DNA from: an uncultured Acidobacteriota bacterium
Lineage (GTDB): Bacteria; Acidobacteriota; Vicinamibacteria; Vicinamibacterales; 2-12-FULL-66-21
DNA length: 64,000 nt
Assembly (NCBI GenBank): GCA_963776315.1
Contig: CAVZMJ010000004.1
Span: forward strand, 88,298-152,297
Direction: 5' to 3'
Shown: positions 4,928-63,521 of the stretch, piece after piece
Layout: the number at the start of each line of letters is the position of its first letter
How positions within the stretch are numbered: the stretch's first letter is position 1
The notes under the pieces: model-generated
Databases searched by the model: none
Told to the model about the DNA's origin: nothing
What the model saw: only the letters and a program-made list of their open reading frames with translations
Program-made: the position numbers and the translations under genes

Positions 4928-4946
4928 GTGCGGTGCAGTCTCTCGA

Positions 4947-5410: not shown

Positions 5411-5428
5411 CTCATCGTTCGCCGTCCG

Positions 5429-44791: not shown

Positions 44792-45015
44792 TTAACGAGC
44801 GACAATTGATCCCGCGGGTCGTTCGCGGGGACGACGCCCGCTCCGCTCGCCAGACTCACTCGCTGCCGCTCGTTCGCGCTCCGACACGCTCTCTCGCGTG
44901 CGCAGGCGCGATTCATGCCGAACCTTCTAAGCCGGCAACGCAAGTGTAAACCGTTGATTCTAGTGAACCGAAGCACTCGGTCAAACGCCGTGTTACATTT
45001 ACGTCGGTTTCGAGC

Positions 45016-46401: not shown

Positions 46402-46418
46402 GAGCTCGTGTCCGGATC

Positions 46419-46486
46419 CTTCCGCCGAACAGGCGGAAGCCACGAGAAGCCGAAGCGAGTTCTAGCTTCCGTCTTGCAGACGGAAG
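46419..46486 (+). terminator. Two 8-bp-stem hairpins after waaA (CTTCCGCC..GGCGGAAG and CTTCCGTC..GACGGAAG)
   Basis: Perfect stems at 46419-46439 and 46466-46486, 18 nt after the waaA stop. No U-tract follows. GGAAG word repeats continue to about 46580. Confidence 0.3.
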
Positions 46487-46584
46487 ATCACGCTCGCACG
46501 GGTGAAAGATCATGCTCGAGCGATCATCAGGACCAGGCAAGACTGCCGGAAGCCGGAAGCCGGAGGCTGGAGGCCGGAAGCTGA

Positions 46585-49624: not shown

Positions 49625-49691
49625 CGAGGCAATCAAGGAACGGCGAAGCAGTGACGATCAATCAAGGAACGGCGAAGCAGTGAGGGGCAAT
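49575..49691 (+). repeat. Four tandem 29-30-bp units CAAGGAAC(T/G)GCGAAGCAGTGA(C/G)G(A/G)(T/G)(G)CAAT
   Basis: Units at 49575-49603, 49604-49633, 49634-49662 and 49663-49691. There are no spacers. Unit 2 supplies the waaF stop codon. Confidence 0.9.
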
Positions 49692-49714
49692 CAGGGCGCA
49701 GATCGGGTGGCGAG

Positions 49715-50269
49715 ATGAAGCGGGCCGTGTTTCTGGATCGTGACGGCACCCTCATCGAGGAGATGGGCTATCTCGATCGTCTCGACCGGGTTCGCTTCTT
49801 TCCGTACAGCATCGATGCGGTCAGGCTGCTCAACCGCGCAGGATTCGTGGTGATCGTGGCGACGAACCAGGCCGGTATCGCCCGTGGTTTCTTCGACGAA
49901 GCGTTCGTCGACGCCACGCATCGCTCGCTCACCGGCACGCTCACGGCCGGCGGCGCGCGTGTCGATGGGTTCTATTTCTGTCCCCATCATCCCGAGGGCG
50001 TCGTCGAGTCCTACCGGCAGGCCTGCGAGTGCCGAAAGCCGCAGCCGGGGCTGCTGCGGCGCGCGGCGGCGGATCATCAGATAGACCTTCGACACTCGTT
50101 CGTCGTCGGCGACCGCGTGCACGACATCACGGCCGGGACAACCGTCGGCGCGCGCGGCGTGCTCGTCCGCACCGGCCACGGAGATCAGGCCGAACGCTCC
50201 GGCCACGGCGCCGCGGCCGTCACCGACAATCTCATCGGCGCCGTTTCCTGGATTCTCAGACAACCGTGA
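49715..50269 (+). CDS. gmhB: D-glycero-beta-D-manno-heptose-1,7-bisphosphate 7-phosphatase (HAD-IIIA)
   Basis: 'AVFLDRDGTL', 'VATNQAGIARG', 'CPHHP...CECRKPQPG' and 'VGD' are present. Confidence 0.85.
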   Translation: MKRAVFLDRDGTLIEEMGYLDRLDRVRFFPYSIDAVRLLNRAGFVVIVATNQAGIARGFFDEAFVDATHRSLTGTLTAGGARVDGFYFCPHHPEGVVESYRQACECRKPQPGLLRRAAADHQIDLRHSFVVGDRVHDITAGTTVGARGVLVRTGHGDQAERSGHGAAAVTDNLIGAVSWILRQP

Positions 50270-51322
50270 CCCGACACCTGCCTCACAACCGACGCGCCAC
50301 TGCTGAGTCTGTCGTCGACCCAGGACGACTGCTGGAACTTGTCGACCAGTTCGCGCGCGCGTCGCGTCGCCGTCTTCGGGGATCTCATCGTCGACGAGTT
50401 CATCTACGGCGAGCTGTCGCGCGTCTCGCGCGAGGCACCGGTCCTCATCCTCGACTACGACTCGACAGACATCGTTCCCGGTGGCGCCGGCAACGCCGCG
50501 ACGAACGTGGCCGCGCTCGGCGGTGCGCCGGTCGCGGTTGGCGTCGCCGGCCGCGACGAGGCAGGCCGGCGGCTGCTCGACGCCATGCGTCGCAGCGTGG
50601 ACGTCAGAGCAGTGGTCCGCCCAGCCGGTTACCGGACGCCGACCAAGACGCGCATCCTCGCCGGCGGCGTGCACTCCGCCAAACAGCAGGTCGTGCGCAT
50701 CGATCGCGCCACGCGACCGTCGTTTTCCGAGGCCGATCGTCGGACCATCGAGTCACGGCTGATGCAGGTCTGCGCCCGCGCCGATGCGCTCCTCGTCTCC
50801 GACTACGGCACGGGACTCGTGACGCCCGCCGCCGTCGCGCGTGCGCGCCGCAGGCTCACCCGACGGTCCGGGGCGCGTCCGACGCTGCTCGTCGACTCGC
50901 GCTACGCGCTCGTCCGCTTCCGTGGCATGACCGCCTGCACGCCGAATGAATCCGAAGTCGAGCATTTGCTGGGCATCCGCATCGGCGAGAACCTCAGGAT
51001 CCTCGAGAAGGCGGGACGCGAGCTGCTGACGCGCACGCGCGGCCACGCCGTCCTCGTCACGCGCGGCAGCCGCGGGATGGCGCTCTTCGAGCGCAATCGG
51101 CCGACGATCCACATCCCCATCTTCGGTTCGGACCAGATCGCGGACGTCACCGGCGCCGGGGACACCGTGATCGCCACCATGACGCTCGCGCTCGCCGCAG
51201 GCGCGACCTTCCACGAGGCGGCGCGCCTCGCCAACTACGCCGGCGGCCTGGTCGTCATGAAGCGCGGGACCGCGACCGTCTCTGCCGACGAATTGCGGCA
51301 GGCGATACTGTCGGACACGTAG
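50266..51322 (+). CDS. hldA: D-glycero-beta-D-manno-heptose-7-phosphate kinase (RfaE domain I, PfkB family); one frame change near 50362
   Basis: The GTG at 50266 overlaps the gmhB stop (GTGA). 'LLELVDQFARA' shifts into 'VAVFGDLIVDEFIYG'. 'GGAGNAA' and 'DVTGAGDTV' are also present. Confidence 0.8.
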
Positions 51323-51468
51323 TTTGAATCCTCCAGATCCGGCCGACGGCCAATCACGATGATCACGAAGACCACGATGACCGCGAAGCATTCTGAATGG
51401 ACCTCCTTCGCGATCCTCGTGAGCTTCGCGACTTTCGTGAGTGATTCCGTGACAGCGAGCCCGGCCCG

Positions 51469-51937
51469 ATGATCGTCACGCGTGAACAACTGGTGGACGT
51501 CGTCAAGGCCGACCGGCAGGCCGGGCGTCACCATCGCCTTTGCCAACGGCTGCTTCGACCTCCTGCACGTCGGCCACATCAGGTACCTACAGGCGGCCGC
51601 CGCCGAGGCCGATCGGCTGATCGTCGCGGTCAACGACGATGGAATCGCGGCGGGGAAGGGCCCTGGCCGGCCGATCATGGCGGCGGCGGACCGCGCGGCG
51701 CTGGTGGCGGCGCTGCGCGGCGTCGACTACGTCGTGATCTTTCCCGAGCCGACCGTGACGCCGCTCCTGACCCTGGTAAGGCCTGACGTCCACTGCAAGG
51801 GGACCGACTACACCATCGATACAGTGCCTGAACGAGAGACCGTCCGCGCCTACGGCGGACGGATCGCCATCGTCGGCGACCCCAAGGACCATTCGACGCG
51901 CGACCTGCTGGCCCGGATCCTCGGCGACCGTCAGTGA
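51469..51937 (+). CDS. hldC: D-glycero-beta-D-manno-heptose-1-phosphate adenylyltransferase (RfaE domain II); one frame change near 51525
   Basis: '[20 protein letters not shown]' shifts into '[21 protein letters not shown]' (the cytidylyltransferase HxGH motif). 'AVNDD' and 'DYVVIF' are also present. Confidence 0.8.
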
Positions 51938-52097
51938 TTGGAAGCTATCTCATCAACGGAGTGCCTCGAAGGCCGCGACCAGCCTCCGCTAAAGCTACGG
52001 CGGACTCGCCGAAGCCTTCGGCGAAGGCGGTCGTGCCCTCGTGTTCGTCGTGCCGAGACCGTCGGACTGACCCCACGCCTGAGCGCGGGCCCAAACG

Positions 52098-53129
52098 ATG
52101 AACATCCTGATCGTTCGTCTTGGCGCGCTTGGAGACATCGTCCATGCCATCCCTGCGGCGGCTGCGCTGCGTGCGTCGATGCCCGGCGCCCGCATCGACT
52201 GGCTGGTCGAGGCCAGGCATCGGCCGATCGTCGATCTCGTCACCGCGGTCGACCACGTGGTGCCTCTCGAGGGGCCGACGATCCGAGCCTGGGTCGATGT
52301 CATCCGTCGCCTGCGACAGGTGCGGTATGACCTGGCGTTCGACTTCCAGGGATTGATGAAATCGGCTGTTCTCGCCCGTGCGTCGGGCGCTGCCCGAGTC
52401 GCGGGGTTTTCGATCTGGCATCTCCGCGAGAAAGGCGCCCGGCCCTTCTACTCGGACACGAATGACGGCGACGATGATGACGCGCACGTGATCCAGAAGA
52501 ATCTTCATCTCCTCCGCGTGGCGGGCATCGAGACGTCGCGCGTCGAGTTTCCGATCGCGGATGCAGGCTCACCCGCGCTCGACGAAGTCCGCGGCGCGAT
52601 CGGCCCTGGCGCGTTCGCAATCATCAATCCCGGCGCGGCCTGGCCGAACAAGCGATGGCCGCCGACGCGCTTCGGAGAAGTGGCGGCGTTTCTTCGCGAG
52701 GTGCGCGGGCTGCCGTCGATTGTGTTGTGGGGGCCTGGCGAGCAGACGCTCGCGCAGGCGGTCGTCGACGCATCGAATGGCGCCGCCCGATCCGCTCCGC
52801 CGACCGAGGTGGCGGATCTCGTGGCGCTCTCCCGGCAGGCTGCGCTCGTCGTGTCGGGTGATACCGGTCCGCTGCATATCGCCGCCGCCGTCGGCACACC
52901 GGCGGTCGCGCTCTTCGGGCCGACCGATGGCAGGAGGAACGGGCCGTGGGCGGCTGATGACGTGACCGTCTCGAGGTACGAGACGTGCGGCTGCCACTAC
53001 GAGCGCCGCTGCCACCAGGCCGCATGGTGTCTCGACAGCATCGGCGTGGCCGAGGTGACGGCTGCGATTCAGCAGCGGCTCGGACGCAGCATCCCGATCG
53101 AACCGGGGCGGGCGGAACGCGATGTCTGA
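52098..53129 (+). CDS. waaC: LPS heptosyltransferase I (GT9)
   Basis: 'ILIVRLGALGDIVHAIPA', 'IDWLVE', 'YDLAFDFQGLMKSA' and 'SGDTGPLHIAAAVGTP' are present. Confidence 0.75.
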   Translation: MNILIVRLGALGDIVHAIPAAAALRASMPGARIDWLVEARHRPIVDLVTAVDHVVPLEGPTIRAWVDVIRRLRQVRYDLAFDFQGLMKSAVLARASGAARVAGFSIWHLREKGARPFYSDTNDGDDDDAHVIQKNLHLLRVAGIETSRVEFPIADAGSPALDEVRGAIGPGAFAIINPGAAWPNKRWPPTRFGEVAAFLREVRGLPSIVLWGPGEQTLAQAVVDASNGAARSAPPTEVADLVALSRQAALVVSGDTGPLHIAAAVGTPAVALFGPTDGRRNGPWAADDVTVSRYETCGCHYERRCHQAAWCLDSIGVAEVTAAIQQRLGRSIPIEPGRAERDV

Positions 53130-53631
53130 GCTCGTGCTCGGGCTGGCGCGGTATCGCGTCCGTCTCGGATTCATCGCTGCGGCCGCCGCGCTGTGGCTGG
53201 CGCGACCGACGACGCGGAGCCTCGCCGCCGGGGCCGCGGTTGCTGTCGTCGGGGAGTTGCTGCGGATCTGGGCCGCCGGACACCTCGAGAAGGGTCGCGA
53301 AGTGACCGCGTCGGGTCCGTATCGCTTCAGCCGGCATCCGCTCTATCTCGGCTCGGCGCTCATCGGGGCGGGGTTTGCCGTGGCGTCCGCGAGCCTGCCC
53401 GCCGCGGTGCTGGTCGTCGTCTACCTGGTGCTCACGTATGGCGCCGCCATCCGGAGCGAGGAAGCACACCTGACGGAGAAGTTCGGTGCGGCGTATCCGG
53501 AGTACAGGGATGGCCGTTCGAGGCAAGCCGAACGCCGCTTCAGCCTGCAGCGCGTGATGCGGAACCGCGAGTACCGCGCCGCCGCGGGGCTTCTCCTCGT
53601 CCTCGCGCTGCTCGCCTGGAGGATTGGCTGA
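53122..53631 (+). CDS. Isoprenylcysteine carboxyl / phospholipid methyltransferase-family membrane protein
   Basis: 'SGPYRFSRHPLYLGSALIG' and 'EEAHLTEKFGAAYPEY' are ICMT/PEMT signatures. It overlaps the waaC end by 8 nt. Confidence 0.75.
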   Translation: MSELVLGLARYRVRLGFIAAAAALWLARPTTRSLAAGAAVAVVGELLRIWAAGHLEKGREVTASGPYRFSRHPLYLGSALIGAGFAVASASLPAAVLVVVYLVLTYGAAIRSEEAHLTEKFGAAYPEYRDGRSRQAERRFSLQRVMRNREYRAAAGLLLVLALLAWRIG

Positions 53632-54104: not shown

Positions 54105-54366
54105 ACAAATCCAGTCATATCAATAGTCTGCACGCTGCACGATCGGGTGGTGACAGCCCGATCCTAGGGGTGCATTGGCGGCGCGCGTTCAAAGGTGTTT
54201 GCCAAGAGAACAGATGCGTCAGGTGGTCCCTGAGGGCCACCCGGTTACCAACCCGAATCCGCCAGCATGTCGGCAGTCCCTTGACGCCCTCCACGTCGAC
54301 GCCGGCGAGCTTCAAGGCGGCACGATACTTGAGGGATCAATCACGGAGTCATACTGATTCGTTCCG

Positions 54367-57300
54367 TTACGGCTTCAGCTTGGCGAGCTCGTCGGCGGTG
54401 AACGGATCCTCGCCCTTTTCGAGCATCGCGATCCACCGTCGCCGCGGAGCCCTCTGGTCCTCCGTGTACTGGGCGTCGTTGGCGAACGCCCGGAAGTCCT
54501 CGATAGCTCCTGCGATATCCCCCGTGCGGGCACGGTTGAGGCCGCGGCTGTCGCGGTGGCCATTGAGATATTTTGTTCCGGCGCCCAGCTGCACGGCGGC
54601 GGCGCAGGCCTTCCGCACTTCGGGGTGCCTCAACAGATCGGCGGCGCCGAGACTGCCGCGCCAGCATAGGGAATTGGCCGTGAGGTGTTCGGTGTCGAAG
54701 GGTGTGCGCGTCGCGCCAGCCGCGCGGAGCTTCGCGACCGTCTCGAGCGCTTCGCTCACCCTCATGGCCTGAAGTAGCGCCAATGCGTGGCTGACCGTGA
54801 CGCTCTGCACGAGCGACACCGTCTCGGCGTCGATGTCGAAGGTCTGCGACGGGTCGTAGTCGCGCACGAGGCCGAGCAGCATACGAATGCTTTTTTCGTC
54901 GTCGCCATTCCTGGCCGCGGCCTGCGCGAGCTCGCGAAGGCTGGCGGTCAGGTCCTCGCGTCCGCTCTGCTCGAGCGTCTCCGTGCGGTTACCGAAACTA
55001 GACGCAGAATCGAACCGCTCGAGCAGGTTGCGGCCCTCTTCGGTCCGCGCCGCGCGGGCGAGCACTTCCGCCTGCGCGACCGTGCCGTAGAGGTCCTGGC
55101 GACCGGCGGCGGCGATGGTTTGTGCGCTGATCGCTGCCGCATGTTCGGCGGGATTCAGCGCAAGTCCCGGCAGCGTCCGCTGCGCGGACGCGAACTTTGC
55201 TGTGGCACCCTTGACGTCGCCCAGTCTCGCCAGCCGGTTGCCTTCCATGACGTCGCCGAACGCCGCACTCAGCGCATCGCACCAGGGGCCCTCGCATTCG
55301 TCGTCCTGAAGGTTGCGGGTGAGCGCCGTCAATCCCGCCGGCAACTGTCCGGCGAGGCGCGCCGGCAACAGGCGAACGATTCCATCGTCGCCGGCGACGA
55401 TGACGGCCGCCGAGTCGTCCGTGAAGCGGATTCCGGAAATGCCGCTGAGACCTGCGACGCTCGTCACCACATCAGTGTCGAGCTGTGGGGCATCCAGGTT
55501 CCAGACCCGCACGGTCTTGTCATAACTGCCGCTGGCCAGCAGGTTGCCGCCGGCGCTGAATGCCAGGGCTTTCACCGACCCGCCATGGGCCGACCACGTT
55601 CGTTCCGTCGGCTGGACGGAGCCATCGAAGCCCGCGAGATTCCAGATCCTGATGTTGCGGTCGCTGTGCCCCGCCGCCAGGCGCCGGCCGTTCTGAGTGA
55701 ACGCCAGGCTGAGAACCGGCGACGACGTGGACGCGAGCAATGCCGGTGGCGGCAACAGCCGGTCCTTGAGCTGACCGAGATAGATCCTCCCGTCCATCAA
55801 TCCGATGGCGATCTGTTGGCCGTCGGGGCTGAACACCGTCGCGGACACGTTCTGGCCGGCCGAGCGCGTCGGGCTCATCGCCGGGAGCGAGATCGGTGCA
55901 CCGAGCGGCATGGCGGACGAGACGTCCCAGAGCTTGACGGAATCACGTCCCGCGGAAAGCAGGACTGTTCCGTCGGGATTGAACGCAAGGCTGTCGCTCA
56001 CGCTGGTCTCTGGAAGGACCCGCTCGAGCTTTCGAGCAGCTGTCTGGTAGATGGCGATGCTGCAGCCATCCGTGCAGACAGTGAAGGCTGCCCGTGATCC
56101 GTCAGGACTCACGACGGCCATGCGGGCGCCACGCACCTCGAACGCACCAACGCTTTCGCGTCCGGGTTTTGCGAGGCTCCAGAGCCGGACTACGCCGGTG
56201 TTGCTGCCTGTGACGAAAGCCTGACGTCCGACAGCCGAGAGGCTCGCGATCGGTTCGGTGCTCCACCCGAGAATCGTCCCGGATCCCGGTACGAGGTTCC
56301 ACAGGCGGACGCCGCTGGATGATCCGGTCGAGGCGAGCGTCGCCCCGTCCGGACTGATCCGGAACATGCCCGCTTCCCGTGCCGGCAGCGCGAACTGCGC
56401 GGCAACGGTGAGGCTGCCTGCGCCAGCCGTACTGCGCAGCAGCGTTCCAGCCGTACGCGCGGCTCCCGGCCCGACGGTGAGCGTCGTGACGATCCCGTCG
56501 GCGCCAATCGCGAGCACGCGGCCTTCACGCGACACGCCGATTGCCCTGACGGCTGTCGGCAGCTCGTAGCGCGCGACTTCCGCCTCGGTGTTCCTGGACG
56601 AGAGCGGCAACGGGCGCGCCACTCGCACCAACCGATCCTCGCTCGCCGTGATCAACCGCTGGCCGTCGGGATGGAACACGAGATCGGTAACGCCGGGCTG
56701 GTCGACGACGTTCGCGATGTGCTCTCCGGTCTTGGCGGCCCAGATCTTGACCAGGGGCCCACCGCCTGCACTGGCAATCAGCGCGCCGGTCGGGCTGAAC
56801 GCGACGGCTTTCACGGGGCCGTTCTTGTCGTGTTCGAGCGTCCGATAGGCGTTCGCCGACAGCGCCCACAGGTGCACGTCGCCGCCGGCACCGATCCCGG
56901 CGAGATAGCGGCCGTCGGGACTGAATGAAAGACGGTCGATAGCGGGCGATGGATCGGCGAGCGCGCGGATCGTCGCGCCGGTCTGCGCGTCGAGGATCTG
57001 CAGCGCCTTGCCGGCGACCGCGAGCTGCCTGCTGTCCCAGCTATAGCCGATCGCGGCCGGTGAGGCTACGGCAAACGACGCCACCCGTCCGCCGCTTGTG
57101 GCGTCGGAGATGGTGATACGGGTTGGGCTCGCGGTTGCGATCCGCCGGCTGTCGGGACTGAAGGCCACCGCGACTACGTCGGACGAACCGGGTAGCGCGA
57201 GACGCAGCCGATTCGCCTGGATCACCTGGTGAAGCGTCGACGCCACCGACGGCGGAAGCGCCTGCCCGTTCAGCTCGAGGAGCAGCGCCGCCTGCACCGC

Positions 57301-59355
57301 GAGCAGGATGGAATGTTCGGGGTCGTCGCTCAGCGACTTCTTCGCCGCGTCCGCCCACGTCGTCGCGTCGAACAGACGGGCCTTGGTCCGGTCTGCCGCG
57401 AGCAGCTTCTCGATCTGGATTTTCTGCGCGGCGATCAGCTCTGCCCGCCGTTGGGCCGTACCCGTCGCGACTTCAGCCCGGTTCTTCGCATCGAGGGCGT
57501 CCTGTCGCGCCCGGTCAGCGCGTCCTTCGGCAGCCCGCGCGTCGATGAGCGCCCGGTCAGCGACCTCCTTCGCATCGACTGCCTTTTTCGTCTCCTCGCT
57601 GGCGAGGTTCCAATTCCAGAGCGCAGCGTGCGTGCTGCGGTTCGCCTCGACCATCCGCGTGAACGCGAACACGGCCAAGGCCACTGACACGCACGTCATC
57701 GTCACGAGCACACGCCGGACGCGGCGGTGACGCCGGCGCGCCGCATTGGCTGCTGTGCGGCTGGCCTCGACCAGGGCCCGCAGGTCGTCGCTGACCAGCG
57801 TCGCGGCGTCGGGCGATGCGAGCCACGTCTCCGCCTCGAGCAGGGCCACACTCTTCAGCAGCCCGGCTTCGCCGCGGCCGTGACGGATCCATTCCGCCGC
57901 CTTGGCCTCGAGCCGGCGCCCGGTGGTGATTCGCTCACGATCGCGATCGAGCAGCATCACCAGTCGATCCCAGTTGCGCACCAGCGCTTCGTGCGCGATC
58001 TCGACCTCGGTGTCTGCCTCGGAGTCGCCAGTCAGCCTGATCAGGCGGCCCTCGATCAGCCTGTCGAGCACGCGGTTCACGTGCTGGCACGGTCCGATGT
58101 TGTAGAGCGACTGCCGCCGCACGCGGTTCGCCACGTTGTCCTGGCCGTTGCCGGGACGCACCAGCCGCATGAAGATCCGATCGGCCATCACCCGGTCTTC
58201 CGGCACCAGGCTTTCCATGAACTTGTCGGCCGACCGCGTCAGCGCCAGCCGCCCGCCGCCGAGTTCGCGGTAGGCGTGCAGCGTCACGCGGTTGTGCTCG
58301 CGCCGCTCCCACAACTGCAGCAGCGTGAACTGCAGCAGCGGCAGCGCCGCCGGCTCGCCCAGGATGTCGTGCACCAGCGCCTCGACGACGCCCTGCTCGA
58401 ACTTCAGGCCGATCTGCTCGGCCGGCCGTTCGATGGCTTCGCGCAGCTCCGCGGCGGTCAGCGGCATCACCGGCTCGAGCGCATTCTCCAGCAGCCGCTG
58501 CAGCTCGGGCTCGCGCGCCACCGCGCCGATGAAGTCGTTGCGCATCGTCAGCAGGACGATGTGTCGCGAGTCGGGGTGGCTGGCGAGGATGGCCAGCGCC
58601 TTTTCGAACGCGACGCGTGCCTCCGAGTCCTGCTGCAGGGTGGCGACTTCCTCGAACTGATCGACGACGAGCACCACCGGCTGGTCGGAGCGCTCCTCCA
58701 GCATCGCCAGCAGCGCTGCCGGATCGGCCTTCAGGATTTGCGCGATGTCGGTCGTGGCCGCGCCCTCCGGCCATCGACGCTCGATCGTCTGCTCGAGGTT
58801 GGCGAGCGGATCCACGCCCGGCACCATGCGTCCGAGATAGGTCCAGCGCTCGCTGCCCGGGAGCGCTCCCGCCTTCAGTGCCGGGATCAGTCCGGCCAGC
58901 ACGAGCGATGACTTGCCGCTGCCGGAGGGCCCGATTACCGCGACGAGCTTCTCGTGGCGCAGGCGCGAGACCAGGCTGCCGATCGCCTGCTGGCGCCCGA
59001 AGAACATTCCGGTCTTCTGTTCCACGAAGGAGTCGAGGCCGACGTAGGGTACCGCGCTCTCGTCAAGCGTGGGCGCCAGCGCGGGATCGAACGGGGCGAG
59101 CGTGGACTCGGGCACCGGCCGTTGGGCGCGGTACAGCGTGGTCGCCCAGAAGTCGAGCAGGCTCTGCGCGGCCGCCTGGTCGTGCTCGTCGTCCAGAATG
59201 GCGCCGGTGGCGACGCCGCGGCAGATGAACGTCTCCATCTGCGCAAAGGTGTCCGAGGCCTCGGGGTCGTCCCGGTAGATCTTCTGCAGCCGCCGGTGTT
59301 CGGCGCGGAGCGCCGGCAGCGACGCGAACGCGGTCTCGACGTCGCACGTAGTCAT
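54367..59355 (-). CDS. STAND NTPase (nSTAND/NACHT-like P-loop) with a TM helix, coiled coil, about two WD40-like beta-propellers and a helical-repeat C-domain (1662 aa)
   Basis: The real start is the ATG at 59355, overlapping the TIR gene stop (ATGA). 'PYVGLDSFVEQKTGMFFGRQ...VIGPSGSGKSSLVLAGLIPAL' carries Walker A at 58906-58932. Walker B 'VVLVVDQFEE' is at 58651-58677. The TM helix 'VLVTMTCVSVALAVFAFTRMV' is at 57649-57711. At least 11 blades of the form 'FSPDG...V(R/K)(L/I)W(N/D/A)' span roughly 55363-57210. The ORF is uninterrupted. Confidence 0.85.
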   Translation of the reverse strand: MTTCDVETAFASLPALRAEHRRLQKIYRDDPEASDTFAQMETFICRGVATGAILDDEHDQAAAQSLLDFWATTLYRAQRPVPESTLAPFDPALAPTLDESAVPYVGLDSFVEQKTGMFFGRQQAIGSLVSRLRHEKLVAVIGPSGSGKSSLVLAGLIPALKAGALPGSERWTYLGRMVPGVDPLANLEQTIERRWPEGAATTDIAQILKADPAALLAMLEERSDQPVVLVVDQFEEVATLQQDSEARVAFEKALAILASHPDSRHIVLLTMRNDFIGAVAREPELQRLLENALEPVMPLTAAELREAIERPAEQIGLKFEQGVVEALVHDILGEPAALPLLQFTLLQLWERREHNRVTLHAYRELGGGRLALTRSADKFMESLVPEDRVMADRIFMRLVRPGNGQDNVANRVRRQSLYNIGPCQHVNRVLDRLIEGRLIRLTGDSEADTEVEIAHEALVRNWDRLVMLLDRDRERITTGRRLEAKAAEWIRHGRGEAGLLKSVALLEAETWLASPDAATLVSDDLRALVEASRTAANAARRRHRRVRRVLVTMTCVSVALAVFAFTRMVEANRSTHAALWNWNLASEETKKAVDAKEVADRALIDARAAEGRADRARQDALDAKNRAEVATGTAQRRAELIAAQKIQIEKLLAADRTKARLFDATTWADAAKKSLSDDPEHSILLAVQAALLLELNGQALPPSVASTLHQVIQANRLRLALPGSSDVVAVAFSPDSRRIATASPTRITISDATSGGRVASFAVASPAAIGYSWDSRQLAVAGKALQILDAQTGATIRALADPSPAIDRLSFSPDGRYLAGIGAGGDVHLWALSANAYRTLEHDKNGPVKAVAFSPTGALIASAGGGPLVKIWAAKTGEHIANVVDQPGVTDLVFHPDGQRLITASEDRLVRVARPLPLSSRNTEAEVARYELPTAVRAIGVSREGRVLAIGADGIVTTLTVGPGAARTAGTLLRSTAGAGSLTVAAQFALPAREAGMFRISPDGATLASTGSSSGVRLWNLVPGSGTILGWSTEPIASLSAVGRQAFVTGSNTGVVRLWSLAKPGRESVGAFEVRGARMAVVSPDGSRAAFTVCTDGCSIAIYQTAARKLERVLPETSVSDSLAFNPDGTVLLSAGRDSVKLWDVSSAMPLGAPISLPAMSPTRSAGQNVSATVFSPDGQQIAIGLMDGRIYLGQLKDRLLPPPALLASTSSPVLSLAFTQNGRRLAAGHSDRNIRIWNLAGFDGSVQPTERTWSAHGGSVKALAFSAGGNLLASGSYDKTVRVWNLDAPQLDTDVVTSVAGLSGISGIRFTDDSAAVIVAGDDGIVRLLPARLAGQLPAGLTALTRNLQDDECEGPWCDALSAAFGDVMEGNRLARLGDVKGATAKFASAQRTLPGLALNPAEHAAAISAQTIAAAGRQDLYGTVAQAEVLARAARTEEGRNLLERFDSASSFGNRTETLEQSGREDLTASLRELAQAAARNGDDEKSIRMLLGLVRDYDPSQTFDIDAETVSLVQSVTVSHALALLQAMRVSEALETVAKLRAAGATRTPFDTEHLTANSLCWRGSLGAADLLRHPEVRKACAAAVQLGAGTKYLNGHRDSRGLNRARTGDIAGAIEDFRAFANDAQYTEDQRAPRRRWIAMLEKGEDPFTADELAKLKP

Positions 59356-60845
59356 GCCGTTACCCTCAGCACACTGCTCAACGGCTCCCCGACGCTGAAG
59401 AGCTCGTCGCACTGGTTCTTGAGATCGGCGTCGGTGTTGTAGAAGCGGATGCCTACCTGGCGGCGCAGCAGCCGGAAGCCGCGCGAGACCTTGGCGGTCT
59501 CGCCGGCGTTGATCGCGCTCTGCAGGCCGTCACACTCGGCGAGGAACGACGGCATCCACGGCACGCCGCCGTAGCTCTCGGCGATGCGCCCGACCAGCTC
59601 GTGCACGTCGGGCCACCAGGCGCCGAGATCCTCGAGGTTCTTGTCCATCGCGCGCAGCTGCGCGTCGAACTCCTGCCACATGTCGTGGCGGTGCAGCAGC
59701 GAGCTGAGGTTCTTCTCCATGCGGTCGAGCGCCTCGACGCCAGAGCGGAACTGCTGCAGCCGGGGAGACTCGCTTTCCACCGTCGCGGCGTAGTCGCGCA
59801 GGTCGCTCAGCGCCTTGACGAGGTCGGGCAGCCTGAGGGCGCCGGCCGCCGCGGTGAGGCGGTTGTTGATCTGCGGCAGCCGCAGGGTGAGCTGCCGGTT
59901 GACGCGGCGGATGACGTCCTTCAAGAGCGCCGGATCGTCCTGCGCCAGCGCCCGCCGCAGATCGTTCAGTGCCGCGTCCAAGACCTCGATCCACTTCGCT
60001 TCGGCCTCGGAGAACTGCCGGGCGATCTGCCGCAGCTGCTGGGTGACGTCCTCGAAGATGATGCGGTACTCGTCGAGCTCGGCCTTTGCCTCGTCGTCGT
60101 CCGGGAAGTCGGCGGCCACGCGCTCCATCGGGTCCTCGACCTTCTGGTGCAGCTCGTGGAGCCGGTCGTGGAGACCCTTGTAGCCGGTGACCTCCACGAT
60201 TTGCTTACGCGCCGTCTCGAACACCGCGCTGAAGCGCAGCGCCATTTCCTTGATGCGGTCGTCCCTCGTGAGCTTCGACAGCGCGCCAAGACCCGCGACG
60301 ACGGGAGCCGAGGACACCGGCACCGGCGCCTTCGGCGTGGCGATCGGCGTCGGCATCGCCGGCACAGGACGATCCGACGGCGACAGCGCCCGGATGACCC
60401 GTGCGAACTCGCGCTCGTAGCCGTCGGGGTCGACGAAGTTCGCGCAGGTGGTGATCGACAGACGCCGCGGGAGCTCGGTCGGCGCAATCAGGATGGGCAG
60501 GAGCTTGCGCCGGCGGCCGTCGGGATCGATCGACTGCGCGAACGAGAACTCGAACCCCGACCACTCGCTCTCAATCCAGTTGGGACTGACGACGAGCACG
60601 ACGTGCTGGCTCGCGTCCACGAACCGCTCCATGTTGTCGCGGGCCAGCGAGCCGATGTCGAAGTCGCGATAGTCGATCACGACGCGCAGCCCGGCCTGTT
60701 CCAGCACCGGCAGCAGATAGGTGTCCACCCACGCCCGATCCTTGTGGCTGTAGCTGATGAAGGCGTGGTACTGGTGGGTGCCGTCTATCGACGCCGTTGG
60801 TGGCGGCGGTGGGCCGGGGTGCACGGGGAGGTCGGTGTTCAGCAT
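59352..60845 (-). CDS. TIR-domain protein with a ~300-aa uncharacterised alpha-helical C-terminal domain (497 aa)
   Basis: TIR motifs 'YHAFISYSHKDRAWV', 'RVVIDYRDF' and 'VVLVVSPNWIESEWSGFEF' (W95-x3-E99) lie at about 60381-60773. A Pro-rich linker and a helical region (59355-60278) follow. It is translationally coupled to the STAND gene. Confidence 0.85.
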   Translation of the reverse strand: MLNTDLPVHPGPPPPPTASIDGTHQYHAFISYSHKDRAWVDTYLLPVLEQAGLRVVIDYRDFDIGSLARDNMERFVDASQHVVLVVSPNWIESEWSGFEFSFAQSIDPDGRRRKLLPILIAPTELPRRLSITTCANFVDPDGYEREFARVIRALSPSDRPVPAMPTPIATPKAPVPVSSAPVVAGLGALSKLTRDDRIKEMALRFSAVFETARKQIVEVTGYKGLHDRLHELHQKVEDPMERVAADFPDDDEAKAELDEYRIIFEDVTQQLRQIARQFSEAEAKWIEVLDAALNDLRRALAQDDPALLKDVIRRVNRQLTLRLPQINNRLTAAAGALRLPDLVKALSDLRDYAATVESESPRLQQFRSGVEALDRMEKNLSSLLHRHDMWQEFDAQLRAMDKNLEDLGAWWPDVHELVGRIAESYGGVPWMPSFLAECDGLQSAINAGETAKVSRGFRLLRRQVGIRFYNTDADLKNQCDELFSVGEPLSSVLRVTA

Positions 60846-61140
60846 CGGCGACGAGCCTCTTGCGGTGCCTTGCTGCTCCGCGCCCGGGCGTCCCCGCGCA
60901 CATCGCGCGAGAAATCCCGACCTGCGCGGTTGTCGACGGCAACGCGTTCAATGTTTGCAGGTCGACGTGCAACGCATCGCAACGGGCGTGCCTGCTGAGA
61001 TCTGGAAGGGAGCGCGGGCGGTAAATGCTTGCAGCGAAACGTCGAAAGGAGCCTGGAGATTGACCGGGCGTTGCCCGCTCCGGAGCCGGAGTCGCTATCC
61101 GAACCGCTAGTCCGCTATCCGAATGGATAGGCGCTGGGGC

Positions 61141-61278
61141 GCTGCGGCGGATCTTCTGGTACTGTCCATGGACCAGCCTCCCTCGCAGATCTGGCCCACG
61201 TTCTTGCGGAATCACATTGGCCAGATCCTGCGGCAGTTCGCGTCGAGCATACGCCGAGGCGCCAGGTCTCTGAGATAA
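61141..61278 (+). mobile_element. Short remnant of an integrase/transposase (rve-type) gene
   Basis: Translation 'DQPPSQIWPTFLRNHIGQI' resembles the conserved 'PSQ(T/S)WRTFLRNH' block just before the catalytic core of IS-type integrases. No catalytic core follows. It is preceded by the direct repeat CGCTATCCGAA (61093 and 61113) and the palindrome CTATCCGAATGGATAG (61115-61130). Confidence 0.4.
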
Positions 61279-61399
61279 TCAGGCCCGTCCGGCGTCTAAG
61301 AGCGTCAATGAATGAAATGCCGGTGTCGGTTCGGCCAGCCCTTCGGCGGCTCGCGCGGCGTCTCGCCATCGGCCTCTTTCTGGACGTGTGGCCGGCGTG

Positions 61400-61842
61400 G
61401 GCGGTCGCGAGTCTCACCAGAGTTCGAGCCGCGGCCGGATCCCGACGAGGGTCGGACAACGCTGCGCGAGATGGCGCGGGTCACCGGCGGCATCGAGCGA
61501 ACGACGTGGGACGACGTCTTCAACACGGCCCATCTTCGGAGCCGCCAGCTGCGCGATCTGGTGATACCGCTCACGCTGATGCTGCTGGTCCTGCACGTGG
61601 CCGAGATCGGCGGACGGCGACTGTTGCTGTTTGCCGCCGCACGCGGGTGGCTGGGAACCGTGAGGTTTCCAAGGCTGCCGGGTGGATGGACCCGCGCAGG
61701 GTCGCGGCCGGTGGTGGTGTCCCAGGATCCTGACGGGGAAGGTGCGCCGTCTGGTGAGACTACACGTGTCGCACCGCCAAGCCCCGCGACGTCGCCGCTG
61801 GCGCGGGCCAAAGCAAAGGCGCGCGATCGGATGGGACTCTGA
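61400..61842 (+). pseudogene. 3' fragment of a membrane-anchored (possibly VWA/Bat-like) protein gene
   Basis: 'TLREMARVTGGIERTTWDDVF...RQLRDLVIPLTLMLLVLHVAEIGGRRL' resembles the C-terminal TM and tail of large VWA-type proteins. There is no matching N-terminal body, and a frame break separates it from ORF 61308. Confidence 0.3.
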
Positions 61843-62051
61843 GTGCGCCAGGCATCCTTCGCCTCGACCTGGACGAGCACACGCTGCCGGCGCACGCGAC
61901 GATATCGAACTCGCCATTCCTCGTCGTTCTCACGATGGCGCCGCGATTCTCGAATCACCCGACGTCTCCGAGGAGCGTTGTCACCGACTGCGAGTCGCAC
62001 GCGGCTCGCGGACCTGCGCTGCTTGCGGTAGACTGCCGAACAGGGCAGGAC

Positions 62052-63521
62052 ATGATTCTCATTTTGGAGGCGACCGGGCCGGAGGCCTCGCAGCTCGGAT
62101 CTGCGAGCCGGCGGGAATTCCCCGCAGAGGGCGGCATCATCGGTCGCGACAAGAGCAGCGACTGGGTGTTGCCGCATACGAAGGTGTCCGGCCACCATGC
62201 GCGGATCACGTTCCTGCACGGCCTCTTCCATATCGAGGACACGAGTCGAAACGGCGTCTTCCTCAACTCACCGAAGAATCGACTGGATCGCGGACGGCCG
62301 TACGGACTGAAGTCCGGCGACCGTATCTACATCGATCCCTATGTCATCGACGTGTCTGTTTCGAGCGGACGGAACGAGTCGTCTGGTGAGCACTACTCGG
62401 ACCTTCCCGGTCTGGCCGATCCCTTTGCGCAACCGGGGTTCCATTCCCCCACACCCCCGATCCGATCGGCCAGACGAGACACTCGTCCCGAGGTTGCCCC
62501 CGGTCAGGAAGTGGATCCGCTCAAGTTGCTGGATCCAGCGCTGAATCTCCCCCCTGCACGCAAGGCCCCCAGCGCTCAGGACCTGGAACACGGTTCGCCG
62601 TTTGCCGGTCACTACAAGCCACCCTCGATTCCCACGCCACCGCCGCACGTACCCGCGCCGGGCGCGCCGGTGATTCCGCCGGACTACGATCCGATGAGTC
62701 CGGATGTCCCCGTCATCGAAGCCCCACCGCGCTCGGTGCCGCGAGAGGACTATCGATCGGTGGCTGAATCGCACATCGATATCGATATTCCTCTGCCCAC
62801 CGCGCCACCGCCCGCGCGAATCGTTCACACACCGACGCCGCCTGCTCCTGCCGTCGTCAGAAGAGCCGCCGAGGACGCACGCACTCCCGCAGTCGACCGC
62901 GAGTCTCACACGTCGGCGCTGGCGGCGGTACTGGCGGGCGCCGGGCTCGACAACGTCGCCGTCACCGACGAGTTCGCGAGGGACTTCGGCGAGATTCTGC
63001 GGGTCGTGGTATCGGGCGTCATGGACGTGTTGAGGTCCCGCCAGCAGATCAAGGACGAGTTTCGGATGCGCCTGACGCAGTTCAGGCCTGCCGACAACAA
63101 CCCGCTCAAGTTCTCCGCCAACGTCGACGATGCCCTGCACAACCTGCTCGTCAAGCGCAATGCCGCGTATCTGGCGCCAGTCGAGGCGTTCGAAGACGCG
63201 TTCGACGACTTGCGCCATCACCAGATCGCCATGCTGGCCGGCATGCGCGTGGCTTTCGAAGCGATGCTGGCCGCGTTCGATGCGGACCATCTCCAGCAGG
63301 AGTTCGATCGTCAGCTCAAGAGGGGCTCGTTGCTCGGAGTGACCGCCAAGCTTCGTTACTGGGATCTATACTCCGACAAGTGCCGGCAGCTCTCCAAAGA
63401 TCCGGACACGAGTTTTCGCAAGCTGTTCGGCGAAGAGTTCGCCAAGGCTTACGAAGAGCAGCTCACGCGGCTCAAAGGCGAGAGTCGCGCTTCCGACGGT
63501 GTGGCCAAGCCGTCGGAGTAA
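62052..63521 (+). CDS. tagH: Type VI secretion system-associated FHA-domain protein TagH
   Basis: ATG at 62052. The N-terminal FHA domain reads 'GGIIGRDKSSDWVLPHTKVSGHHARITFLHGLFHIEDTSRNGVFLN'. A Pro-rich linker follows, then the C-terminus 'FRPADNNPLKFSANVDDALHNLL...HQIAMLAGMRVAFEAML', typical of TagH. Confidence 0.8.
   Translation: MILILEATGPEASQLGSASRREFPAEGGIIGRDKSSDWVLPHTKVSGHHARITFLHGLFHIEDTSRNGVFLNSPKNRLDRGRPYGLKSGDRIYIDPYVIDVSVSSGRNESSGEHYSDLPGLADPFAQPGFHSPTPPIRSARRDTRPEVAPGQEVDPLKLLDPALNLPPARKAPSAQDLEHGSPFAGHYKPPSIPTPPPHVPAPGAPVIPPDYDPMSPDVPVIEAPPRSVPREDYRSVAESHIDIDIPLPTAPPPARIVHTPTPPAPAVVRRAAEDARTPAVDRESHTSALAAVLAGAGLDNVAVTDEFARDFGEILRVVVSGVMDVLRSRQQIKDEFRMRLTQFRPADNNPLKFSANVDDALHNLLVKRNAAYLAPVEAFEDAFDDLRHHQIAMLAGMRVAFEAMLAAFDADHLQQEFDRQLKRGSLLGVTAKLRYWDLYSDKCRQLSKDPDTSFRKLFGEEFAKAYEEQLTRLKGESRASDGVAKPSE

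What the first reader, a model, noticed from the sequence alone, without database searches (positions are those of the whole stretch)
57373..57711. The STAND protein is bisected by a TM helix, predicting an extracytoplasmic propeller/helical sensor region
Seen: 'ARRRHRRVRRV' (8 basic residues in 11) precedes 21 hydrophobic residues 'LVTMTCVSVALAVFAFTRMV'. A ~80-aa Ala/Arg/Glu/Lys coiled coil follows (57373-57615). By the positive-inside rule, the NTPase would be cytoplasmic. The following ~1090 residues would lie outside the membrane: the coiled coil, the propellers and the helical tail with 'ECEGPWC'. Characterised antiviral STANDs (Avs, bNACHT) are soluble cytosolic sensors. An envelope-side sensor coupled to a cytosolic P-loop switch and a TIR partner would be a different sensing logic, for example detecting adsorption or injection, envelope damage, or T6SS attack from the neighbouring locus type.
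Basis: inference. Interest (0 to 1): 0.68.

Follow-up and report, generated by a model that had tools for sequence, protein, structure and literature searches.

The report
Membrane-spanning STAND NTPase with TIR partner
This large bacterial immune-type switch protein very probably crosses the inner membrane once, leaving its ATPase inside the cell and its beta-propeller sensor in the periplasm; this layout is shared by a large, uncharacterised family that always travels with an effector-carrying partner gene.

Summary
In the 1662-aa protein (54367-59355, minus strand), residues 549-569 are the only Kyte-Doolittle peak above 1.6. RRRHRRVRR precedes them and an 84-residue helix follows.

The protein is an nSTAND1 NTPase (Pfam E 5e-110) with two WD40 propellers and a TPR-like tail. 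The helix is a clade trait, not a peculiarity of this gene. It sits at the same place in 107/120, 76/80 and 114/117 homologues from three samples.

Evidence for N-in/C-out topology:
- Basic residues favour the N-flank (103:1 and 98:3).
- Post-helix regions show even-cysteine bias.
- Some homologues carry typically exported domains there (subtilase, PD40, SH3_3).

New here: the TIR gene overlaps the STAND start (ATGA). Its C-terminal 310-aa helical domain lies next to the STAND gene in 74/81 loci. Its N-terminus is swapped among TIR, CHAT and EAD domains. The 6.8-kb pair is a cassette found elsewhere with unrelated flanks, so there is no T6SS link.

"Transmembrane STAND" sensors are mentioned only in passing in the literature, and none has been tested. 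Topology is well supported in silico (about 0.85). Periplasmic sensing that drives a cytosolic TIR is inference.

The parts
54354..61154 (-). Two-gene cassette (TIR-adaptor gene plus membrane-spanning nSTAND1 gene, with about 300 bp upstream)
   Evidence: blastn: window 54354-61154 matches L001 6087-12866 at 93.5% identity over 6810 columns. The flanks are unrelated (L001 gene table).
59352..60845 (-). Partner gene, 497 aa: TIR domain, Pro-rich linker, conserved helical domain
   Evidence: Pfam TIR_2 at E 2.6e-22. The stop codon overlaps the STAND start as ATGA.
60396..60770 (-). TIR domain (partner residues 26-150), with the conserved Glu at E99
   Evidence: Pfam. The best PDB sequence matches are TLR6 and TLR1 TIR domains (E about 2.5e-15), ahead of AbTIR (6e-5). 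SEWsgfE aligns with SEWchyE.
59355..60293 (-). Conserved all-helical 'constant' domain of the partner (residues 185-497)
   Evidence: tblastn finds it in 74/81 loci; 69 of these are adjacent upstream of the nSTAND1 gene and 40 have a 4-nt overlap with it. AF2 pLDDT is 89 and the model is all helices. There is no Pfam hit and no PDB fold match.
54367..59355 (-). nSTAND1-TM-WD40-TPR gene, 1662 aa plus stop
   Evidence: ORF and translation; Pfam. GC3 is 0.81-0.90 throughout.
59050..59355 (-). Conserved N-terminal domain (residues 1-102), the candidate docking site for the partner
   Evidence: It is conserved across 30 diverse homologues, with many invariant or nearly invariant columns. There is no Pfam hit. 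The docking role is inference.
57871..59049 (-). nSTAND1 NTPase module (residues 103-495), with Walker A GPSGSGKSS (58909-58932) and Walker B VLVVDQFEE (58648-58674)
   Evidence: PF20703 at E 4.9e-110, 369 bits against a cutoff of 27.1. Invariant columns include G145, G147, K148, S149, S150, D232, Q233, E235 and E236.
57712..57738 (-). Basic run RRRHRRVRR (residues 540-548) on the cytoplasmic flank
   Evidence: Read from the sequence. Family-wide, the N-flank averages 5.1 K+R against 2.1 on the C-flank.
57649..57711 (-). Predicted single transmembrane helix VLVTMTCVSVALAVFAFTRMV (residues 549-569)
   Evidence: It is the only KD-19 peak above 1.6 (1.93). Its position is conserved in 107/120, 76/80 and 114/117 homologues. 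AF2 leaves it unpacked, with pLDDT below 50.
57334..57648 (-). Periplasmic stalk: Trp-rich interface (ALWNWN), then a Pro-free Ala/charged helix with heptad Ala (residues 570-674)
   Evidence: Heptad analysis. AF2 models a single helix over residues 591-674. In homologues the median Pro-free run after the TM helix is 81 residues.
57199..57321 (-). Helical cap preceding the propeller (residues 679-719, ...DDPEHSILLAVQAALL...)
   Evidence: AF2 helices at residues 679-694 and 702-719. The same motif precedes WD40 in homologues, including the TM-less P0243.
55351..57198 (-). WD40 beta-propeller region (residues 720-1335, two propellers)
   Evidence: Pfam WD40 at E 8e-51, with propeller families matching about 720-912 and 1045-1331. 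AF2 shows beta-blades from residue 729.
54370..55350 (-). C-terminal helical, weakly TPR-like tail (residues 1336-1662) with Cys pairs 1354/1359 and 1564/1584
   Evidence: Only sub-threshold TPR hits. Homologues are WD40-TPR fragments. The tail is shared with P0139 and with the TM-less P0259.

Best explanation
A mobile two-gene conflict (immune or abortive-type) module.

Gene 2 encodes a bitopic inner-membrane STAND NTPase of the nSTAND1 family with N-in/C-out topology. In the cytoplasm it has a conserved 100-aa N-domain, the P-loop NTPase and its helical arm. An Arg-rich stop-transfer signal and one TM helix follow. In the periplasm it has an 85-105-residue helical (probably coiled-coil) stalk, two WD40 propellers and a TPR-like tail.

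Gene 1 is translationally coupled to gene 2. It encodes a TIR effector on a conserved 310-aa helical adaptor domain.

Proposed mechanism (inferred):
1. A ligand or envelope event engages the periplasmic repeats.
2. The sensor cannot touch the NTPase across the membrane. The signal therefore passes by ligand-induced clustering or re-packing of the stalk and TM helix.
3. Clustering permits NTP-dependent oligomerisation of the cytosolic nSTAND1 modules.
4. The oligomer gathers partner molecules through the constant helical domain and activates TIR, either as an NAD+-consuming enzyme or as a signalling scaffold.

What is shown: domain identities, conservation of the helix, the charge bias, the partner linkage and the cassette boundaries. 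What is inferred: membrane insertion, the direction of signalling, the ligand and the TIR chemistry.

The confidence of 0.55 is for the whole statement. Topology alone is about 0.85. Periplasmic sensing that drives the TIR is about 0.45.
For: Identity of the parts:
- nSTAND1 at E 4.9e-110, plus WD40 and TIR_2.
- Walker A and B motifs are invariant.

The helix:
- It is the unique KD peak of the protein.
- It is present at the same position in 107/120, 76/80 and 114/117 homologues from Chloroflexota, Acidobacteriota, Cyanobacteria, Gemmatimonadota and Bacteroidota.
- The median uncharged core is 23 residues with KD 2.5.
- Its sequence is not conserved, as expected for a lipid-facing anchor.

Topology:
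- K+R in the flanks is higher on the N side than the C side in 103:1 (4 ties) and 98:3 (13 ties).
- Even-Cys bias is 72% after the helix (p 1.7e-5) against 54% before it.
- Homologues carry Peptidase_S8, PD40/DPPIV_N, SH3_3, CarboxypepD_reg and Trypsin_2 after the helix.
- The TM-less relative P0243 lacks the basic run, the stalk and the terminal Cys pair together.
- AF2 leaves the helix unpacked and builds one 84-residue helix after it.
- The host has Kdo transferase, a lipid A acyltransferase, a heptosyltransferase and T6SS TagH, so it is a diderm.

Coupling to the partner:
- The two genes overlap as ATGA.
- The constant domain is present in 74/81 loci; 69 are adjacent to the nSTAND1 gene and 40 overlap it by 4 nt.
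- The partner's N-terminus is swapped among CHAT (29), TIR (12), EAD10 (9) and EAD7 (6) of 69 partners. Close relatives carry an EAD8-like domain.

Mobility: a 6.8-kb cassette with unrelated flanks.

Literature:
- nSTAND1 was defined as a conflict-system NTPase (PMC8195603).
- TM-bearing NACHT proteins are 'likely' to sense intramembrane or periplasmic signals.
- 'Transmembrane STAND ATPases' are listed as a sensor class.
Against: - No topology experiment exists, and no dedicated predictor (DeepTMHMM, TOPCONS) could be run.
- This protein's helix is among the least hydrophobic in the family: KD 1.93 against a median of 2.5, and a simple Hessa sum of +1.8 kcal/mol.
- TM-less relatives use the same sensor type. 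P0243 has the WD40 cap and P0259 has the WD40 plus the same C-terminal tail and its Cys pair. The sensor fold is therefore not compartment-specific, and the Cys-parity argument is only suggestive.
- Canonical STAND autoinhibition needs contact between the sensor and the NTPase.
- There is no PADLOC system match. I made no survey of defence-island context.
- Heptad periodicity of the stalk is significant in only 14/115 homologues.
- The TIR resembles scaffolding TLR-type TIRs more than known bacterial NADases.
Confidence: 0.55

Rival explanations
1. Membrane tether rather than trans-membrane sensor. The helix and periplasmic module only position the complex at the envelope, for example bound to peptidoglycan or outer-membrane components. 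The trigger is either cytoplasmic (sensed by the N-domain, the NTPase or the partner) or is mechanical loss of envelope integrity rather than ligand binding.
For: - A single helix is a poor conduit for conformational signals.
- Homologues carry wall-binding-type modules (SH3_3, PD40, CarboxypepD_reg) after the helix.
- The stalk length (median Pro-free run of 81 residues) would suit a spacer or ruler.
- The N-domain is highly conserved, whereas the post-helix part has no conserved column.
Against: - The post-helix region is the hypervariable, swapped part (WD40 in 30/62, otherwise other domains). This is the pattern expected of a specificity-determining sensor, not a common anchor.
- TM-less relatives keep the same WD40 modules in the usual STAND sensor position.
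Confidence: 0.18
2. Same architecture, different biology. The module serves developmental or social signalling (kin or neighbour recognition, programmed cell death in filaments) rather than anti-phage defence.
For: - Homologues are concentrated in filamentous or multicellular lineages: Roseiflexus, Caldilineae, Anaerolineae and filamentous cyanobacteria.
- Kaur et al. report enrichment of such systems in multicellular bacteria (PMC7159879).
- No PADLOC match.
Against: - The effector set (TIR, CHAT protease, EADs) is the standard repertoire of conflict systems.
- The cassette moves between unrelated contexts, next to an rve integrase in L001.
- The present host shows no sign of multicellularity in the window.
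Confidence: 0.15
3. Inside-out device. The cytosolic NTPase controls the activity or exposure of the periplasmic module, so the C-terminal region is an output rather than an input.
For: Some homologues carry enzymes after the helix: Peptidase_S8 at E 1e-55 and Trypsin_2.
Against: - Most post-helix modules are binding repeats (WD40, TPR, PD40) with no catalytic function.
- A dedicated effector already sits on the cytosolic partner.
- In all studied STANDs the C-terminal repeats are the input (established knowledge: Apaf-1, MalT, Avs).
Confidence: 0.07
4. The hydrophobic segment is not membrane-inserted. It is a buried or oligomerisation helix of a soluble cytosolic STAND.
For: - This copy is only moderately hydrophobic (KD 1.93, with polar T, S and C).
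- AF2 confidence is low in this segment.
- TM-less relatives show the sensor can work in the cytoplasm.
Against: - Homologues have 21-27 uncharged residues with KD 2.0-3.5 and no sequence conservation.
- The positive-inside asymmetry is strong.
- The helix is not packed against any domain in the model.
- A Trp-rich interfacial motif follows directly.
Confidence: 0.05

Closest known systems
nSTAND1 clade of STAND NTPases (Pfam PF20703; Kaur, Iyer, Burroughs & Aravind 2021, PMC8195603)
   Same: - Full-length match to the family model.
- Invariant Walker A and B motifs.
- C-terminal superstructure-forming repeats.
- Association with TIR, caspase-like and EAD effectors in predicted conflict systems.
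   Different: - The defining paper describes N-terminal EAD or effector fusions and FGS sensors. It does not mention a membrane helix.
- Here the effector is on a separate protein, joined through a conserved helical domain, and the sensor lies beyond a TM helix.
- Other nSTAND1 proteins (DGR targets) were predicted to be cytoplasmic.
Antiviral STANDs: Avs1-5 and later families, bNACHT
   Same: Tripartite logic of effector, NTPase switch and repeat sensor. TIR is among the effectors.
   Different: - The characterised members are soluble and sense phage proteins in the cytoplasm.
- No PADLOC model matches this protein.
- A 'TM regions' class of bNACHT (usually multi-TM) was only predicted to sense membrane or periplasmic signals.
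'Transmembrane STAND ATPases' listed as protease-fused sensors of Pepco modules (bioRxiv 2025.11.14.688446)
   Same: A STAND ATPase with a membrane segment, acknowledged as a sensor type in defence modules.
   Different: They are mentioned only as a class. The effector module differs (protease plus Pepco). No topology or mechanism is given.
Animal Toll-like receptors (repeat ectodomain, one TM helix, cytosolic TIR)
   Same: - An extracytoplasmic repeat sensor, a single-pass helix and a cytosolic TIR output that depends on receptor clustering.
- The partner's TIR is most similar in sequence to TLR1, TLR6, TLR10 and TLR2 TIR domains (E about 1e-15).
   Different: - The ectodomain is WD40/TPR, not LRR.
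- A P-loop NTPase is interposed.
- TIR is on a separate polypeptide.
- This is an analogy of layout, not evidence of common descent of the receptor.
Bacterial bitopic Ser/Thr kinases PknD and PknB (own knowledge)
   Same: A large folded cytoplasmic enzyme domain, then one TM helix, then an extracytoplasmic beta-propeller (PknD, NHL) or PASTA sensor. This shows that the topology is feasible in bacteria.
   Different: The output is a kinase, not a STAND NTPase. They have no effector partner and are not conflict systems.
Apaf-1 / CED-4-type apoptosome STANDs
   Same: An NTPase followed by two WD40 propellers acting as the ligand sensor, with oligomerisation recruiting an effector.
   Different: They are soluble, the WD40 directly autoinhibits the NTPase, and a CARD adaptor replaces the helical constant domain.

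Membership tests
nSTAND1 (PF20703) STAND NTPase | Significant full-length match to the family profile above Pfam's gathering score | tested here: met
   E 4.9e-110, 369.2 bits against a cutoff of 27.1. Residues 103-495 cover profile positions 1-377 of 379.
nSTAND1 (PF20703) STAND NTPase | Intact P-loop NTPase motifs: Walker A GxxxxGK[ST] and Walker B hhhhD followed by acidic residues | tested here: met
   GPSGSGKSS (142-150) and VLVVDQFEE (228-236). These columns are invariant in 30 diverse homologues.
nSTAND1 (PF20703) STAND NTPase | STAND-type helical or winged-helix extension after the NTPase core, followed by superstructure-forming repeats | tested here: met
   The conserved HEALVRNW region is invariant. 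AF2 shows helices and small sheets over residues 300-560. WD40 and a TPR-like tail follow.
nSTAND1 (PF20703) STAND NTPase | NTP binding or hydrolysis and nucleotide-dependent oligomerisation | not testable with these tools
   Biochemistry is required.
Bitopic (single-pass, N-in/C-out) inner-membrane protein | Exactly one hydrophobic segment long enough to span the bilayer | tested here: met
   One KD-19 peak above 1.6. 105 of 117 representatives also have exactly one.
Bitopic (single-pass, N-in/C-out) inner-membrane protein | Positive-inside charge asymmetry across the helix | tested here: met
   In the query, 7 K+R in the N-flank against 2 in the C-flank. Across the family, 103:1 and 98:3.
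Bitopic (single-pass, N-in/C-out) inner-membrane protein | Experimental membrane integration and an exported C-terminal domain | not testable with these tools
   Needs PhoA/LacZ fusions, fractionation or protease accessibility. No dedicated predictor was available.
Avs / bNACHT antiviral STAND systems | Match to the curated defence-system models | tested here: not met
   PADLOC gives only a P-loop-level hit to mad3 (E 6e-4) for the STAND protein. The partner gives generic TIR hits. NCBIfam gives none for the STAND protein.
EACC1 two-gene membrane conflict system (Kaur 2020) | A 5' gene encoding the EACC1 single-TM domain, plus a 3' caspase-fused component | tested here: not met
   There is no EACC1 Pfam hit. 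The 5' gene is TIR plus a soluble helical domain, and the TM helix is in the STAND protein.
EAD-coupled effector recruitment (same EAD on core and effector) | A homologous adaptor domain present on both the STAND N-terminus and the effector protein | tested here: not met
   BLASTP of STAND residues 1-110 against the TIR protein shows no similarity (best E 0.44). Coupling appears to be heterotypic: N-domain with constant helical domain.
TIR-domain effector | TIR fold match and conserved Glu of the SxW...E motif | tested here: met
   TIR_2 at E 2.6e-22. E99 aligns with the conserved Glu of TLR1 and TLR6 TIR. NADase activity itself was not tested.

The most novel reading that the evidence does not exclude
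This nSTAND1 clade is a widespread family of trans-envelope innate-immune receptors (tens of thousands of sequence clusters). On this reading, variable periplasmic or extracellular repeat modules detect an invader, such as a phage tail or ejection proteins, predator or T6SS components, or wall damage, before or without cytoplasmic entry. Receptor clustering across a single TM helix then drives NTPase oligomerisation. Interchangeable effectors (TIR, CHAT protease, EAD-recruited enzymes) are fired through a previously undescribed helical adaptor domain. The layout parallels Toll-like receptors plus adaptors.
Probability: 0.3. Interest if true: 0.8.

Novelty: new variant of a known kind. Interest (0 to 1): 0.55.

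Why it matters
All mechanistically understood bacterial STAND immune sensors work inside the cytoplasm, where the sensor repeats directly restrain the NTPase. A STAND whose sensor lies across the membrane cannot use that mechanism. It would show how a P-loop switch can be driven by clustering through one helix, and it would place pathogen or damage sensing in the periplasm.

The layout is the rule in a very large clade: 16,588 50%-identity clusters at E<=1e-30. The clade is paired with a conserved, unnamed adaptor domain carrying swappable TIR, CHAT or EAD heads. One tractable cassette, such as this 6.8-kb one from an LPS-bearing diderm, could therefore open a whole family to experiment.

The idea is not new. 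TM-bearing STANDs have been noted in passing. The value here lies in the family-wide evidence and the defined two-gene unit.

Tried and rejected
- EACC1-system membership: rejected. There is no EACC1 domain and the gene order and content differ.
- Homotypic EAD pairing between the STAND N-terminus and the TIR protein: no similarity.
- PADLOC and NCBIfam: no system or family name for the STAND protein.
- PDB sequence search with the cytoplasmic half: no hit.
- Tandem-repeat search for recently diversified WD40 units: none.
- Search with the C-terminal tail, hoping for relatives with signal peptides as an independent compartment marker: only WD40-TPR fragments.
- Functional link to the adjacent T6SS or LPS genes: rejected. 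The cassette ends at 54354 and 61154 and has different neighbours in L001.
No close genome locus exists among GTDB representatives; the best is about 53% identity.
- Exact look-up of the STAND product: not on record, probably because the annotated start differs.
- Coiled coil as a family trait: not supported, since periodicity is significant in only 14/115 homologues.
- Cysteine parity as proof of export: downgraded. TM-less P0259 keeps the tail Cys pair.


Full report
**1. What is at the coordinates**

The finding lies inside a 1662-aa ORF on the minus strand (54367-59355). Its ATG overlaps the stop codon of the upstream 497-aa gene (59352-60845) as ATGA. This arrangement suggests translational coupling.

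Pfam assigns the large protein to nSTAND1 (PF20703): residues 103-495, E 4.9e-110, 369 bits against a cutoff of 27.1. It also finds WD40 propeller families over about 720-912 and 1045-1331. The last 327 residues give only sub-threshold TPR hits. The upstream protein has an N-terminal TIR_2 domain (E 2.6e-22).

The sequence reads ...ANAARRRHRRVRRVLVTMTCVSVALAVFAFTRMVEANRSTHAALWNWNL...
- The basic run is residues 540-548 (57712-57738).
- The hydrophobic segment is residues 549-569 (57649-57711).

**2. Is the helix real and more than chance?**

Residues 549-567 are the only 19-residue window in the protein with Kyte-Doolittle mean above 1.6. They score 1.93, and the next window scores 1.44. The 1.6 threshold is the classical Kyte-Doolittle criterion (own knowledge).

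This copy is only moderately hydrophobic. It has 18 uncharged residues, and a crude Hessa-scale sum gives +1.8 kcal/mol. On its own it would be a borderline call.

Conservation settles the matter. Three independent samples show one strong hydrophobic helix at the equivalent position, 80-205 residues after the invariant HEALVRNW motif:
- 107 of 120 best word-indexed homologues.
- 76 of 80 genome loci from Chloroflexota, Thermoanaerobaculia, filamentous cyanobacteria, Gemmatimonadota, Cytophagales and Bryobacterales.
- 114 of 117 usable 50%-identity cluster representatives.

The median uncharged core is 23 residues with KD 2.5. The residues themselves are not conserved, as expected for a lipid-facing anchor and not for a buried core helix.

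Most exceptions are truncated proteins or proteins with nSTAND1 at the C-terminus. A few are genuine TM-less variants.

**3. Topology**

- *Charge asymmetry.* K+R counts in the 15 residues flanking the core average 5.1 on the N side and 2.1 on the C side. N exceeds C in 103 of 108 sequences, with 4 ties and 1 reverse. Among 114 representatives the split is 98 against 3, with 13 ties. The query has 7 against 2.
- *No N-terminal signal.* The protein has no N-terminal hydrophobic signal, and its N-terminal half is an ATP-dependent P-loop module. N-in/C-out is therefore the only sensible orientation (inference from the positive-inside rule; own knowledge).
- *Cysteine parity.* The post-helix regions show the even-cysteine bias typical of exported, disulfide-bonded domains: 72% even among non-zero counts, binomial p 1.7e-5. 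The pre-helix regions show 54% (the first sample gave 76% against 49%). The query's six post-helix cysteines form three close pairs.
- *Exported-type domains.* In homologues the post-helix position holds domains that are normally extracytoplasmic: a subtilase (E 1e-55), TolB-like PD40/DPPIV_N propellers, bacterial SH3_3, CarboxypepD_reg and Trypsin_2. WD40 and TPR also occur there.
- *Structure model.* AlphaFold2 on residues 300-1000 with 48 sequences does not pack the hydrophobic helix against any domain; pLDDT is below 50 over residues 551-589. It builds a single 84-residue helix (591-674, pLDDT 75-93), two cap helices, and then a propeller from residue 729.
- *Host envelope.* The window encodes Kdo transferase, a lipid A acyltransferase, a heptosyltransferase, HldE-like enzymes and T6SS TagH. 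The host is a diderm, so 'outside' means periplasm.

Caveats:
- No dedicated predictor or experiment was available.
- TM-less relatives exist that fuse the NTPase directly to the same WD40 cap helix (P0243) or to the same WD40 plus tail (P0259).
- P0259 keeps the tail Cys pair. The sensor fold is therefore not compartment-specific, and the cysteine argument is only supportive.
- On the other side, P0243 lacks the basic run, the long stalk and the cysteines of the terminal 'AC..AGR.L...C' motif all together.

I put the topology at about 0.85.

**4. The stalk**

Residues 570-681 contain no proline and are 26% Ala and about 35% charged. Ala occupies the same heptad position in ten consecutive heptads, and hydropathy has 3.5-residue periodicity (p about 0.02-0.05).

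Across the family, a Pro-free, Ala/charged-rich helical spacer is general: the median distance to the first Pro is 81 residues. Significant heptad periodicity is not general (14 of 115). An 85-105-residue helix would be about 13-15 nm long, enough to hold the propellers well away from the inner membrane (inference).

**5. The partner and the unit of inheritance**

This is the most useful result beyond the finding itself.
- tblastn with the TIR protein shows that its C-terminal 310 residues (185-497), not the TIR domain, are conserved in 74 of 81 loci. 69 of these lie immediately upstream of the nSTAND1 gene, and 40 share the same 4-nt overlap with it.
- The N-terminal part is swapped. Of 69 partners, 29 carry CHAT protease, 12 TIR, 9 EAD10, 6 EAD7 and 1 DUF4062.
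- The closest relatives of this very domain (57-66% identity) carry an EAD8-like head instead of TIR.
- The constant domain has no Pfam family. It folds confidently as an all-helical bundle (pLDDT 89, pTM 0.79) and has no significant PDB fold match.
- The first 100 residues of the STAND protein are also strongly conserved in the clade. They are unrelated to the partner. I therefore infer a heterotypic dock between the N-domain and the constant domain. This is not shown.
- The pair is a discrete cassette. Window 54354-61154 is 93.5% identical to L001 6087-12866, with unrelated flanks. Neighbours there include an rve integrase, a sigma-54 activator and glycine-cleavage genes, and the STAND gene is split into two ORFs.
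- There is therefore no conserved relation to the adjacent T6SS or LPS genes.

**6. Mechanism**

*Shown:* an intact P-loop (invariant Walker A and B), a TIR with the conserved Glu (E99), and the architecture and linkage described above.

*Inferred:* the periplasmic repeats are the input. They cannot contact the NTPase, so activation must come from ligand-induced clustering or re-packing of the stalk and TM helix. That would allow NTP-dependent oligomerisation of the cytosolic modules. The oligomer would then concentrate the partner and fire TIR, or CHAT or EAD-recruited effectors in other members.

*Rivals:*
- A pure envelope tether with a cytoplasmic or mechanical trigger.
- A social or developmental role rather than an antiviral one.
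- Inside-out control of periplasmic enzymes.
- A non-inserted helix.

**7. Comparison with what is known**

- The protein is a bona fide nSTAND1 member. The family was defined in PMC8195603, whose text describes effector or EAD fusions and FGS sensors but mentions no membrane helix.
- Characterised Avs and bNACHT proteins are soluble, and no PADLOC model matches.
- The idea of membrane- or periplasm-sensing STANDs exists only as passing prediction:
  - A 'TM regions' class of bNACHT.
  - Periplasmic CLec/NACHT DGR targets.
  - 'Transmembrane STAND ATPases' as a sensor label.
- The 2026 survey of prokaryotic STANDs does not discuss membranes. The prokaryotic WD40 survey does not discuss TM-linked WD40s.
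- In layout, the closest analogues are Toll-like receptors and bitopic kinases such as PknD (own knowledge).
- The partner's TIR is closer in sequence to TLR1/6/10/2 TIRs (E about 1e-15) than to AbTIR (6e-5).

**8. Verdict**

The feature is ordinary within its clade but unstudied. I rate it a new variant of a known kind: a STAND conflict system with a trans-membrane sensor and an adaptor-coupled, swappable effector. Interest is moderate to high because the clade is very large (48,841 representatives at E<=1e-3 and 16,588 at E<=1e-30) and the cassette is compact and testable.

Noticed in passing
window 59355-60293 (-); loci L002-L081: The C-terminal 310-aa helical domain of the TIR protein is an unnamed, conserved 'constant' domain. 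It lies directly upstream of the TM-nSTAND1 gene in most loci. Its N-terminal head is interchangeable: CHAT, TIR, EAD10, EAD7 or EAD8-like. It has no Pfam family and no PDB fold match.
   Followed up: yes
window 54354-61154 vs L001 6087-12866: The TIR and STAND pair is a 6.8-kb cassette, 93.5% identical to a copy in a different genomic context next to an rve integrase. In that copy the STAND gene is broken into 1029-aa and 544-aa ORFs.
   Followed up: partly
window 60396-60770 (-): The bacterial TIR domain's best solved-structure sequence matches are vertebrate TLR6, TLR1, TLR10 and TLR2 TIR domains (E about 1e-15, roughly 40% identity over 98 residues). They rank well ahead of the bacterial NADase TIRs AbTIR and TcpB.
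   Followed up: no
proteins P0243, P0259: Rare TM-less relatives join the nSTAND1 module directly to the same WD40 cap helix. P0259 also shares the query's C-terminal tail. The TM helix plus stalk therefore behaves as an insertable module between the NTPase and the sensor.
   Followed up: partly
homologues P0012, P0024 and others, C-termini: WD40-type members end in a conserved motif, 'AC..AGR.L...EW..Y....PY..C', with two cysteines. The query has a degenerate version (TRNLQDDECEGPWC, about 55285-55326). TM-less P0243 has the motif without the cysteines.
   Followed up: partly
window 54367-59355 (-): GC3 falls along the gene: 0.90 in the NTPase half, 0.84 in the TM and stalk, and 0.81 in the sensor half. 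This may reflect a different history or weaker constraint on the sensor region.
   Followed up: no
window 44950-53631 (+) and 61935-63521 (+): The cassette sits between two clusters. One is an LPS-core and lipid A cluster (Kdo transferase, lipid A acyltransferase, HAD phosphatase, PfkB-type kinase, cytidylyltransferase-like, heptosyltransferase, PEMT/ICMT-like methyltransferase). The other is a T6SS TagH (FHA) gene. Between them, ORF 61312-61842 has no Pfam hit.
   Followed up: partly
window 3440-6373 (-): Exact-match cluster members of two ORFs are named tricarboxylate (Tct) transport membrane proteins. All looked-up window proteins map to one 393,007-bp NCBI/ENA contig whose organism name is not available.
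   Followed up: no
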